A DNA stretch of 64,000 nt from Escherichia coli. Its GTDB lineage: Bacteria > Pseudomonadota > Gammaproteobacteria > Enterobacterales > Enterobacteriaceae. Position numbers and translations under genes: made by a program. Below are positions 6,633 through 7,993 of this stretch, one piece after another; positions within the stretch are counted from its first letter, which is position 1, and every line of letters starts with the position of its first letter. The notes below the pieces were generated by a model. It saw only the letters and a program-made list of their open reading frames with translations, ran no database searches and was not told the origin of the DNA. Location of the stretch: the NCBI RefSeq assembly GCF_003334815.1, contig NZ_QOWO01000009.1. One strand, given 5' to 3'.

Positions 6633-7445
6633 ATGATTTCACGCCGCCGATTTTTGCAGGCTACTGCCGCGACGATAGCCACGAGCTCAGGTTTCGGTTA
6701 TATGCATTACTGTGAGCCAGGCTGGTTTGAATTAATCCGTCACCGCCTCGCCTTTTTTAAAGACAACGCAGCACCATTCAAAATTCTTTTTCTGGCCGAT
6801 CTCCATTACTCTCGTTTTGTTCCTTTAAGCCTGATTTCTGACGCGATTGCTCTTGGCATAGAACAAAAGCCCGATTTGATATTACTGGGCGGCGATTACG
6901 TATTATTTGATATGTCGCTGAATTTTTCGGCGTTTAGTGACGTACTCTCCCCCCTTGCCGAATGTGCGCCGACGTTTGCCTGCTTCGGCAACCACGATCG
7001 CCCTGTTGGTACAGAAAAAAATCACTTAATTGGCGAGACGTTGAAATCAGCGGGCATCACGGTGTTGTTTAACCAGGCTACGGTGATCGCCACGCCGAAC
7101 AGGCAATTCGAACTGGTAGGCACTGGTGACTTATGGGCCGGACAATGCAAACCGCCTCCCGCCAGCGAAGCCAATCTGCCAAGACTGGTGCTGGCGCATA
7201 ATCCCGACAGCAAAGAAGTCATGCGTGATGAACCCTGGGATCTGATGCTGTGCGGCCATACTCACGGCGGGCAACTGCGCGTACCGTTGGTTGGTGAACC
7301 TTTTGCCCCTGTCGAAGATAAACGTTACGTCGCCGGATTAAATGCCTTTGGCGAAAGACACATCTACACAACCCGTGGCGTGGGCAGTTTGTATGGTTTG
7401 CGTCTGAACTGCCGCCCGGAAGTAACGATGCTGGAACTGGTGTAG
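6633..7445 (+). CDS. yaeI: calcineurin-like metallophosphoesterase (phosphodiesterase YaeI) with twin-arginine signal
   Basis: Track ORF 6633..7445, 270 aa; N-terminus MISRRRFLQATAATIATSSG is Tat-signal-like; GNHD and GHTHG motifs typical of metallophosphoesterases. Confidence 0.85.
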   Translation: MISRRRFLQATAATIATSSGFGYMHYCEPGWFELIRHRLAFFKDNAAPFKILFLADLHYSRFVPLSLISDAIALGIEQKPDLILLGGDYVLFDMSLNFSAFSDVLSPLAECAPTFACFGNHDRPVGTEKNHLIGETLKSAGITVLFNQATVIATPNRQFELVGTGDLWAGQCKPPPASEANLPRLVLAHNPDSKEVMRDEPWDLMLCGHTHGGQLRVPLVGEPFAPVEDKRYVAGLNAFGERHIYTTRGVGSLYGLRLNCRPEVTMLELV

Positions 7446-7606
7446 ATCGTGAATTTTATCACCAGAATAAAGCAGGTAATTTTTTGATTTTTACGCCATG
7501 ATAGAAGTCTGGAAGAAAAAGGCTTTCTGCGATCACAGTCGAGCCGGGCGGGCCAGGCCAAATGCTAAAATAAGCACAATTTACTGACTCATTTTGAGGT
7601 AACGCT

Positions 7607-7993
7607 ATGTACGACAATCTGAAAAGTCTGGGTATTACCAATCCTGAAGAAATTGATCGTTACAGCCTCCGGCAGGAAGCCAACAACGATATTCTGAAAA
7701 TCTATTTCCAGAAAGACAAAGGCGAGTTTTTCGCCAAGAGCGTTAAGTTTAAATATCCGCGTCAGCGTAAAACGGTCGTCGCTGATGGTGTGGGTCAGGG
7801 TTATAAAGAAGTCCAGGAAATCAGCCCGAATCTACGGTATATCATTGATGAGCTTGATCAAATCTGCCAGCGTGACCGCAGCGAAGTTGATCTTAAGCGT
7901 AAGATCCTCGACGACTTACGTCACCTGGAGTCAGTCGTAACCAATAAGATCAGCGAGATTGAAGCCGATCTGGAAAAACTAACGCGTAAATAA
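7607..7993 (+). CDS. yaeH: UPF0325 family protein YaeH
   Basis: Track ORF 7607..7993, 128 aa, [35 protein letters not shown]... Confidence 0.85.

What the first reader, a model, noticed from the sequence alone, without database searches (positions are those of the whole stretch)
6633..7993. yaeI (Tat-signal metallophosphoesterase) and yaeH: two adjacent genes of unassigned physiological role
YaeI has a twin-arginine signal (MISRRRFLQATAA) and calcineurin-like phosphoesterase motifs, implying a folded, metal-loaded periplasmic phosphodiesterase of unknown substrate. yaeH (128 aa, charged and helical) follows after a 161-bp gap and is convergent with cdaR. Neither has an obvious pathway context among its neighbours (dapD, cdaR, degP).
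Basis: partly seen in the sequence, partly recalled or inferred. Interest (0 to 1): 0.3.

Follow-up and report, generated by a model that had tools for sequence, protein, structure and literature searches.

The report
Known E. coli genes yaeI, yaeH
These are two already-annotated E. coli K-12 genes: an exported metal-dependent phosphodiesterase that most E. coli strains lack, and a small, extremely conserved cytoplasmic protein of unknown role. They sit side by side because of an insertion, not because they share a pathway.

Summary
The window is E. coli K-12 DNA. yaeI lies at 6633-7445 (270 aa) and yaeH at 7607-7993 (128 aa), 161 bp apart, with yaeH convergent with cdaR.

**YaeI.** It matches the NCBIfam equivalog "phosphodiesterase YaeI". 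All five metallophosphoesterase motifs are intact. The twin-arginine signal is invariant in 61 homologues. It belongs with B. subtilis YkuE, a proven Tat substrate, and more distantly with chlamydial LpxG.

**YaeH.** It is DUF3461/UPF0325. The predicted fold is a PH-like beta domain plus a helical hairpin, so it is only half helical. No function has been published.

**What I add:**
- yaeI is an accessory gene, present in 2084 of 5426 complete E. coli genomes.
- Among 80 species of Enterobacteriaceae it occurs only in Escherichia, plus one pseudogene in Superficieibacter.
- It sits in a variable slot between dapD and yaeH.
- It is still under purifying selection (dN/dS about 0.1-0.17).
- yaeH is near-universal (94-100% identical across genera, dN/dS 0.02 or less) and always stands alone.

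The adjacency of the two genes is therefore incidental, which explains the missing pathway context. Both genes are already known. Interest is low.

The parts
6591..6611 (+). dapD intrinsic terminator: an 8-bp stem with 7 G-C pairs, followed by T7. It ends about 20 nt before the yaeI ATG.
   Evidence: Terminator scan; sequence. In yaeI-less strains homology breaks inside the T-run.
6615..7457 (.). Variable segment carrying yaeI. In yaeI-less E. coli it is replaced by about 135 bp of unrelated DNA.
   Evidence: Alignment of K-12 with O157:H7 DEC4E and CRKP-1. The segment is absent from about 62% of complete E. coli genomes.
6633..7445 (+). yaeI CDS, 270 aa, phosphodiesterase YaeI (binuclear metallophosphoesterase).
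   Evidence: ORF; NCBIfam NF008460 at 531 bits; Pfam PF00149; RefSeq annotation; AlphaFold model pLDDT 92.6.
6633..6698 (+). Predicted Tat signal peptide, residues 1-22 (MISRRRFLQATAATIATSSGFG). The inferred signal-peptidase site lies between G22 and Y23.
   Evidence: RR is invariant in 61/61 homologues. The h-region is uncharged, with a maximum 15-residue Kyte-Doolittle mean of 0.9. Small residues occupy position -3 in 40/45 and -1 in 41/45 homologues, before the conserved Tyr23. The cleavage site is an inference.
6777..7268 (+). Metallophosphoesterase catalytic core, residues 49-212. Motifs: D56-x-H58, G87-D88, G119-N120-H121-D122, H189, G208-H209-x-H211.
   Evidence: Pfam match; invariant columns in the 20- and 61-sequence alignments; motif positions.
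7446..7606 (+). yaeI-yaeH spacer (41% GC) with the yaeH ribosome-binding site GAGG at 7596-7599. The last ~150 bp are shared by yaeI-plus and yaeI-minus Escherichia.
   Evidence: Sequence; alignments; an RpoD-holoenzyme binding site is reported in this spacer by genomic SELEX (PMC3946193).
7607..7993 (+). yaeH CDS, 128 aa, DUF3461/UPF0325 family.
   Evidence: ORF; NCBIfam NF010213; Pfam PF11944; 94-100% identical across 80 Enterobacteriaceae species.
7652..7819 (+). YaeH residues 16-71: predicted five-stranded antiparallel beta domain, PH-like.
7826..7987 (+). YaeH residues 74-127: two predicted helices (74-90 and 93-127), acidic and highly charged, containing the conserved H106-L-E108.
   Evidence: Model; alignments; composition.
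7995..8048 (.). yaeH-cdaR spacer with two hairpins (7995-8017 and 8020-8048). A second, unrelated 53-bp spacer allele exists in other Escherichia.
   Evidence: Terminator scan; alignment.

Best explanation
These are two unrelated, independently transcribed genes.

**YaeI.** It is a binuclear metallophosphoesterase of the YkuE/LpxG branch.
1. It folds and loads its metals in the cytoplasm (inferred).
2. It is exported by the Tat system through a conserved SRRxFL signal (inferred from sequence and from its homologue YkuE).
3. The signal is probably cleaved between G22 and Y23 (inferred).
4. In the periplasm it hydrolyses a phosphodiester or pyrophosphate bond by two-metal catalysis.
5. The natural substrate is unknown. 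Only the bis-pNPP activity implied by its name and annotation is reported.

yaeI is an accessory gene. It entered the dapD-yaeH intergenic slot in the Escherichia lineage. It is kept under moderate purifying selection where present and has been lost from about 62% of E. coli. Its role must therefore be dispensable and niche-dependent.

**YaeH.** It is a cytoplasmic, non-enzymatic protein restricted mainly to Gammaproteobacteria. It has a PH-like beta domain followed by a long helical hairpin. Its sequence is nearly frozen and it has its own promoter. Most likely it acts as a binding or adaptor module for a conserved cellular partner. Which partner is not known.
For: **YaeI identity**
- NF008460 at 531 bits and Pfam Metallophos.
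- All catalytic residues are invariant in 61 homologues.
- The model is confident, and its best structural matches are Mre11, 5'-nucleotidases and GpdQ, all metallophosphoesterases.

**YaeI export**
- RR is present in 61/61 homologues, with S or T before it in 50/61 and F or L after it.
- The h-region is uncharged and too weakly hydrophobic for a membrane anchor.
- A small-x-small pattern precedes the conserved Tyr23.
- YkuE is a Tat substrate with a cleavable signal, and the E. coli homologue is aligned with it (PMC5449189; PMC6708511).

**yaeI is accessory**
- Present in 2084 of 5426 complete E. coli genomes.
- Replaced by unrelated DNA in the others.
- Found in only 3 of 80 Enterobacteriaceae species loci, all Escherichia, plus a deleted pseudogene in Superficieibacter.
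- Other cargo occupies the same slot elsewhere.
- Enrichment in phylogroup A has been published (PMC5422975).
- dN/dS is 0.09-0.17.

**YaeH**
- DUF3461.
- No signal peptide and no solved relative.
- Model and PH-like matches.
- Only family members appear in AFDB50, nearly all gammaproteobacterial.
- Only 172 cluster representatives among 1.84 billion proteins.
- 94-100% identity across genera and dN/dS 0.02 or less.
- Stand-alone gene with changing neighbours.
- RpoD binding site in its upstream spacer.
- The deletion mutant is viable and shows no effect on sigma-E activity (PMC4759930).
Against: - Export, cleavage, metal content and substrate of YaeI are not shown by anything here.
- The two Tat-signal HMMs are borderline: TIGR01409 scores 16.5 against a cut-off of 16.7, and Pfam gives E 0.004.
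- No promoter-like site was found upstream of yaeI, and a strong terminator precedes it by about 20 nt. Expression in K-12 may be very low.
- 'Adaptor' is an inference from fold and conservation. No partner has been identified.
Confidence: 0.7

Rival explanations
1. YaeI is an LpxG-like lipid A enzyme. In this reading it is a membrane-anchored UDP-2,3-diacylglucosamine pyrophosphatase working at the cytoplasmic face.
For: - The second-best NCBIfam hit is LpxG, NF033458, at E 3.7e-35 and 121.8 bits.
- The chlamydial gene later named lpxG (CT461) was originally annotated 'yaeI' (PMC2668754; PMC4807358).
- yaeI transposon mutants were among 44 hits enriched after T7 selection, and the authors grouped them with LPS genes (PMC7414163).
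Against: - The LpxG score is far below the 350-bit cut-off.
- YaeI has GDYVLF where LpxG has GDxxDR.
- The N-terminus is a conserved RR signal with a weakly hydrophobic h-region, not a transmembrane helix.
- Loss of lpxH is lethal in E. coli laboratory strains, so yaeI does not substitute (conditional-lethal design in PMC4807358; established knowledge).
- The gene is missing from 62% of E. coli.
- The T7 hit list also contains clearly unrelated genes such as pyrI, mutT and trpS.
Confidence: 0.07
2. K-12 yaeI is a decaying remnant that is effectively unexpressed and has no current function.
For: - It is absent from most E. coli.
- It is interrupted by IS1 in strain 1506.
- Truncated forms exist in databases, and Superficieibacter carries an internally deleted copy.
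- No recognisable promoter was found, and a strong terminator lies immediately upstream.
Against: - The reading frame, signal and all catalytic residues are intact.
- dN/dS is 0.09-0.17 across Escherichia species at dS 0.4-0.9, which indicates purifying selection.
- 1440 genomes carry alleles at least 99% identical to the K-12 gene.
Confidence: 0.12
3. yaeI and yaeH form a functional pair or operon, which is the implicit reason for reporting them together.
For: They share a strand and are adjacent in K-12.
Against: - In 76 of 80 Enterobacteriaceae species loci yaeH has no yaeI beside it, usually following dapD directly.
- Vibrio keeps map-glnD-dapD-DUF3461 without yaeI.
- 3342 E. coli genomes have yaeH without yaeI.
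- The 161-bp spacer carries a separate RpoD binding site.
- Selective constraints on the two genes differ roughly tenfold.
Confidence: 0.03
4. YaeH is a nucleic-acid-binding or SMC-like structural protein, as some database names suggest ('chromosome segregation ATPase', 'putative structural protein').
For: - Those names appear on family members.
- The N-terminal half is basic, with pI 8.9.
- The C-terminal helices look like a coiled coil.
Against: - The protein is 128 aa, has no Walker motifs, and gives no Pfam hit other than DUF3461.
- Overall pI is 6.6.
- The names are most likely artefacts of coiled-coil similarity.
Confidence: 0.08

Closest known systems
YkuE of Bacillus subtilis, a Tat-dependent metallophosphoesterase
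   Same: - Short, single-domain calcineurin-like phosphoesterase.
- N-terminal twin-arginine signal.
- Held literature aligns the E. coli homologue with it (PMC5449189).
- Natural substrate likewise unknown.
   Different: - YkuE ends up on the Gram-positive cell wall, whereas YaeI would be periplasmic.
- I had no YkuE sequence in hand, so identity was not measured here.
- Longer relatives with 4 transmembrane segments exist in other phyla. YaeI has none.
LpxG (CT461) of Chlamydia, a UDP-2,3-diacylglucosamine pyrophosphatase
   Same: - Same branch of the superfamily, at E 3.7e-35 to the LpxG model.
- CT461 was once annotated yaeI.
- Shares the phi-phi-GHxH motif.
   Different: - The score is 121.8 against a cut-off of 350.
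- LpxG has an N-terminal transmembrane helix and works on a cytoplasmic substrate.
- YaeI has an export signal and lacks GDxxDR.
- yaeI does not replace lpxH.
Periplasmic metallophosphoesterases UshA/CpdB, and GpdQ
   Same: - Binuclear metallophosphoesterase fold.
- They are among the best structural matches.
- UshA and CpdB also work in the periplasm.
   Different: - TM-score is only about 0.45-0.5, with 12-16% identity.
- UshA and CpdB are about 550 aa with a second domain and are exported by Sec (established knowledge).
DUF3461 / UPF0325 family (PF11944, NF010213)
   Same: YaeH is the E. coli member, with full-length matches.
   Different: Nothing differs. The family itself has no known function and no solved structure.
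PH-like (pleckstrin-homology superfold) domains
   Same: The YaeH N-terminal sheet plus the following helix superposes on PH, PTB and FACT-type domains.
   Different: - This is a fold resemblance, not shown homology.
- YaeH adds a long second helix.

Membership tests
Calcineurin-like metallophosphoesterase superfamily (PF00149) | Profile match to the family | tested here: met
   Pfam Metallophos at E 7.2e-13, residues 49-212.
Calcineurin-like metallophosphoesterase superfamily (PF00149) | Five metal- and phosphate-binding motifs: DxH, GD, GNH(D/E), H, GHxH | tested here: met
   D56-L-H58, G87-D88, G119-N-H-D122, H189 and G208-H-T-H211 are all present. All are invariant in 61 homologues.
Calcineurin-like metallophosphoesterase superfamily (PF00149) | Beta-sandwich metallophosphoesterase fold | tested here: met
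   The AlphaFold model (pLDDT 92.6) matches Mre11, CD73/UshA and GpdQ.
Calcineurin-like metallophosphoesterase superfamily (PF00149) | Metal-dependent phosphoester hydrolysis | not testable with these tools
   Only names point to it: 'phosphodiesterase YaeI' and 'phosphodiesterase with model substrate bis-pNPP'.
Phosphodiesterase YaeI equivalog (NCBIfam NF008460) | Whole-protein score above the curated cut-off | tested here: met
   531.3 bits against a cut-off of 188, full length.
Tat (twin-arginine) substrates | (S/T)-R-R-x-F-L-K motif near the N-terminus | tested here: met
   S3-R-R-R-F-L-Q9. RR is invariant in 61/61 homologues.
Tat (twin-arginine) substrates | Uncharged, weakly hydrophobic h-region after the motif | tested here: met
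   F7-M24 is uncharged. The maximum 15-residue Kyte-Doolittle mean is 0.9.
Tat (twin-arginine) substrates | Match to Tat-signal profile models | tested here: inconclusive
   TIGR01409 scores 16.5 bits against a cut-off of 16.7. Pfam TAT_signal gives E 0.0039.
Tat (twin-arginine) substrates | Export that depends on tatABC and on the RR pair | not testable with these tools
   Shown only for the homologue YkuE. I recall a reporter-fusion study of E. coli Tat signals (Tullman-Ercek et al. 2007), but it is not held.
LpxG, UDP-2,3-diacylglucosamine diphosphatase (NF033458) | Score above the curated cut-off | tested here: not met
   121.8 bits against a cut-off of 350.
LpxG, UDP-2,3-diacylglucosamine diphosphatase (NF033458) | GDxxDR form of motif II, and an N-terminal transmembrane helix | tested here: not met
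   YaeI has G87-D-Y-V-L-F. Its N-terminus is an RR signal of low hydrophobicity. The LpxG features are taken from PMC4807358.
Sigma-E regulon (one paper lists yaeI) | GGAACTT-N15-17-TCAAA/TCTGA promoter upstream | tested here: not met
   No such site was found in 5700-7700. The listing is in PMC5105897, and the source it cites could not be read.
DUF3461 / UPF0325 (PF11944, NF010213) | Full-length profile match above the cut-off | tested here: met
   PF11944 at E 2.7e-55, residues 1-125 of 125. NF010213 at 244 bits against a cut-off of 150.
PH-like superfold | Significant structural superposition on solved PH-like domains | tested here: inconclusive
   [not shown]
Anti-phage defence or phage protein families | Match to PADLOC or PHROG models | tested here: not met
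   PADLOC gave no hit for either protein. PHROGs gave only a weak generic metallophosphoesterase hit for YaeI (E 8e-5) and a non-significant hit for YaeH.

The most novel reading that the evidence does not exclude
yaeI could be a strain-variable periplasmic pyrophosphatase or phosphodiesterase, related to LpxG, that trims a phosphate-bearing envelope molecule such as an LPS or lipid-A-type diphosphate. That activity would alter surface properties and phage (T7) adsorption, and the resulting trade-off would maintain the old presence/absence polymorphism. Separately, YaeH could be a PH-like adaptor with a single conserved partner in core gammaproteobacterial physiology, possibly linked to peroxide stress. 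One microarray reported OxyR-dependent induction of yaeH.
Probability: 0.08. Interest if true: 0.55.

Novelty: already known. Interest (0 to 1): 0.2.

Why it matters
It matters little as a discovery.

The useful outcome is a clarification for anyone studying them:
- **Study them separately.** The two genes are not functionally linked.
- **yaeI is accessory.** K-12 phenotypes will not generalise to the 62% of E. coli that lack it. Comparing natural plus and minus strains is a ready-made experiment.
- **yaeH is the better target.** Its protein sequence is as constrained as that of the neighbouring enzyme DapD, yet there is no function, no structure and no informative neighbourhood.

Tried and rejected
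- **PDB sequence search.** No relative of YaeH and none of YaeI at E 0.001 or below.
- **Rfam, 6000-9000.** Only a sub-threshold sroE-like hit on the dapD terminator hairpin (21 bits against 51), dismissed as chance.
- **Promoter scans.** No sigma-70-like site. No sigma-E consensus upstream of yaeI or yaeH. The sigma-E regulon claim in PMC5105897 could therefore not be supported.
- **Defence and phage libraries.** Negative.
- **P0305.** A 4103-aa hit to YaeH with 11 matched stretches proved to be a eukaryotic tenascin-like protein of EGF and FN3 repeats. The score comes from a repeated short similarity and is spurious.
- **Genome scan with the 40-sequence YaeH alignment.** It failed because no stretch was conserved enough. 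The 10-sequence alignment worked but returned only Enterobacteriaceae, so wider context came from single look-ups. These showed no recurrent neighbour.
- **Literature.**
  - The Tat reporter study and the YkuE paper are not held.
  - Searches for DUF3461/UPF0325, for b0163/b0164, and for yaeI with Tat or sigma-E terms gave nothing useful.
- **Foldseek of YaeH against AFDB50.** It found only its own family, so there is no bridge to a characterised family.
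Full report
**What is there.** The window around the finding is E. coli K-12 DNA.
- Over the 7.8 kb compared with MG1655 there is a single difference, at 6421 inside dapD, which leaves DapD unchanged.
- Gene order on the plus strand is glnD (3052-5724), dapD (5755-6579), yaeI (6633-7445) and yaeH (7607-7993).
- On the minus strand come cdaR, degP and dgt.
- RefSeq names the two genes 'phosphodiesterase YaeI' and 'DUF3461 family protein'.
- The curated NCBIfam equivalogs match full length at 531 and 244 bits.

**YaeI, the enzyme.**
- Pfam places residues 49-212 in the calcineurin-like phosphoesterase family.
- I aligned YaeI with 60 homologues down to 45% identity. The metal-binding and catalytic residues are all invariant: D56, H58, D88, N120, H121, H189, H209 and H211 (motif positions). 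Nothing suggests an inactivated enzyme.
- An AlphaFold model built on that alignment is confident (pLDDT 92.6).
- Its best solved matches are Mre11, the CD73/UshA 5'-nucleotidases and the glycerophosphodiesterase GpdQ, at TM-scores of only about 0.45-0.5.
- The superfamily fold is therefore supported, but no close relative has a solved structure.
- The name, and a source annotation on a homologue ('phosphodiesterase with model substrate bis-pNPP'), indicate that activity on a generic diester has been reported. I recall this from the enzymatic screen of Kuznetsova et al. 2005, which is not in the held library.

**YaeI, the signal.**
- The N-terminus reads M-I-S-R-R-R-F-L-Q, followed by 17-18 uncharged residues rich in Ala, Thr, Ser and Gly.
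- The most hydrophobic 15-residue window has a Kyte-Doolittle mean of only 0.9. That is typical of Tat signals and too weak for a membrane anchor.
- The two Tat-signal profile models are borderline: 16.5 against 16.7 bits, and E 0.004.
- Comparative evidence is strong. The arginine pair is present in 61 of 61 homologues, preceded by Ser or Thr in 50 and followed by x-F/L-L.
- In 45 sequences that could be anchored on the following conserved motif (Y-x-R/H-aromatic-x-E-P), the residues at -3 and -1 before the conserved Tyr are small in 40 and 41 cases.
- That pattern fits a signal-peptidase site between G22 and Y23 in E. coli. This is my inference.
- Held literature describes B. subtilis YkuE as a Tat substrate with a cleavable signal and aligns 'the shorter homologue from E. 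coli' with it (PMC5449189; PMC6708511).
- Export itself cannot be shown with these tools.

**YaeI and LpxG.**
- The second-best NCBIfam hit is LpxG, the chlamydial UDP-2,3-diacylglucosamine pyrophosphatase (E 3.7e-35). At 121.8 bits it falls far short of the 350-bit cut-off.
- The chlamydial gene was in fact first annotated 'yaeI'.
- Against membership:
  - LpxG has an N-terminal transmembrane helix and a GDxxDR motif (PMC4807358), whereas YaeI has an export signal and GDYVLF.
  - lpxH remains essential in laboratory E. coli that carry yaeI.
- I therefore treat LpxG as a relative, not as the function.

**yaeI is an accessory gene.** This was the main unexpected result.
- Only 2080 of 5425 complete E. 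coli genomes matched the whole 1.8-kb region.
- A search with yaeI alone found it in 2084 of 5426 genomes.
- In the rest, for example O157:H7, the stretch from inside the T-run of the dapD terminator (about 6615) to about 7457 is replaced by roughly 135 bp of unrelated sequence. Both flanks stay nearly identical.
- Among the species-representative genomes of 80 Enterobacteriaceae retrieved with YaeH, the order glnD-dapD-yaeH-(cdaR)-degP-dgt is general. The dapD-yaeH spacer is typically about 110 bp.
- Only E. albertii and two other Escherichia representatives (one labelled E. coli) have yaeI there. A Superficieibacter has an internally deleted copy.
- The same slot holds an MFS transporter gene in Salmonella enterica subsp. 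diarizonae and an unrelated 245-aa ORF in an Enterobacter. It is a variable site.
- Outside Escherichia the nearest YaeI relatives are Superficieibacter (65%). After that come proteins at 59% or below, several of them labelled Verrucomicrobiota.
- Where present, yaeI shows dN/dS of 0.09-0.17, against 0.01-0.02 for dapD and 0-0.02 for yaeH. Its dS is of the same order as its neighbours.
- This fits a gene acquired by an Escherichia ancestor, kept under moderate purifying selection, and repeatedly lost or replaced.
- Both alleles also occur outside E. coli proper.
- IS1 disruption in one strain and truncated database entries show ongoing loss.
- A published pangenome study had already noted yaeI as enriched in phylogroup A (PMC5422975).
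- GC content (51.4%) is unremarkable.

**yaeI expression.**
- A strong intrinsic terminator for dapD (6591-6611, then T7) ends about 20 nt before the yaeI start codon.
- Neither a sigma-70-like nor a sigma-E-like promoter was found upstream.
- One paper lists yaeI among sigma-E regulon genes (PMC5105897). I could not confirm this. As I recall it, the abstract of the source it cites does not name yaeI.
- Expression by terminator read-through is my guess only.

**YaeH.**
- It matches DUF3461 over its full length and has no solved relative.
- A search of 1.84 billion cluster representatives found only 172 at E 0.001 or below, many of them fragments.
- Foldseek against AFDB50 returned only family members. 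They come from Enterobacterales, Vibrio, Marinomonas, Thiothrix, Colwellia and other Gammaproteobacteria, plus one alphaproteobacterium.
- A model built on 40 sequences (pLDDT 81.8) has five strands (residues 16-71) followed by helices 74-90 and 93-127.
- The protein has no signal peptide. It is 38% charged, with a basic N-terminal half (pI 8.9) and an acidic C-terminal half (pI 5.3).
- It is 94-100% identical across 80 species of Enterobacteriaceae (median 96%), like DapD (median 97%) and unlike GlnD, DegP or Dgt (medians 85-89%).
- There are no amino-acid changes between E. coli and E. albertii despite dS 0.42.
- The map-glnD-dapD-DUF3461 order persists in what appears to be a Vibrio, judged from 64% identity and context.
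- More distant members sit beside unrelated genes such as parC/hexR, a two-component system and tag, rplI, lon/csp and opuAC. They are always stand-alone.
- Published information is thin:
  - An RpoD-holoenzyme binding site lies in the yaeI-yaeH spacer (PMC3946193).
  - One microarray reported peroxide- and OxyR-dependent induction (cited in PMC4207228).
  - YaeH appeared in an MCR-1 co-immunoprecipitate alongside many abundant small proteins.
  - The Keio deletion serves as a neutral linked marker with no effect on a sigma-E reporter (PMC4759930).
- My best reading is a non-enzymatic binding or adaptor protein with a conserved partner. This is an inference, held with low confidence.

**Verdict.**
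- Both genes are already known, and their lack of an assigned role is genuine.
- The lack of pathway context has a simple explanation: yaeI was inserted beside yaeH only in Escherichia.
- Nothing here is surprising to a specialist. Interest is low.
- yaeH is the more worthwhile target for future work.

Noticed in passing
window 6615-7457: The dapD-yaeH intergenic slot is a variable site. It holds yaeI in 38% of E. coli and in other Escherichia, about 135 bp of unrelated filler in the remaining E. coli, an MFS transporter gene in Salmonella diarizonae (L057), a 245-aa unknown ORF in Enterobacter sp. kpr-6 (L035), and a 650-bp insert in L061. The origin of the 135-bp filler is unknown.
   Followed up: partly
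window 7994-8081: The yaeH-cdaR spacer exists in two unrelated forms. K-12 and O157 have an 88-bp form with two hairpins. E. coli CRKP-1 and E. albertii have a 53-bp form with a different hairpin.
   Followed up: partly
window 6591-6632: The dapD terminator hairpin is conserved in all Escherichia. The break in homology between yaeI-plus and yaeI-minus alleles falls inside its T-run (ATTTTTTTG against ATTGCTTTC). The two alleles may therefore differ in dapD termination efficiency.
   Followed up: no
L031, L041, L047, L059, L071, L073, L074, L076 (downstream of yaeH): cdaR is missing between yaeH and degP in several Enterobacteriaceae genera (Yokenella, Cedecea, Franconibacter and others). In L030, L032, L052 and L082 about 3.2 kb is inserted between yaeH and cdaR.
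   Followed up: no
window 8082-9257: The mechanical cdaR ORF starts at a GTG (391 aa), 18 nt upstream of the annotated 385-aa start.
   Followed up: no
window 6575-6618, minus strand: There is a sub-threshold Rfam sroE match (21 bits against a gathering score of 51, E 0.12) on the dapD terminator hairpin. It is almost certainly chance.
   Followed up: yes
L089 5001-5998; L092 3485-4387: In one distant genome the DUF3461 gene overlaps the start of a 3-methyladenine glycosylase (tag) gene by 4 bp. In two genomes a cold-shock-domain gene lies within a few hundred bases. With only two cases each, this may be coincidence.
   Followed up: no
L007 and L004, compared with window 5755-7993: Two records labelled Escherichia coli (SCPM-O-B-8794 and FDAARGOS_1286) show dS of 0.3-0.7 to K-12 in dapD or yaeH. 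That is far above normal within-species divergence. They may be cryptic-clade Escherichia or recombinants.
   Followed up: no
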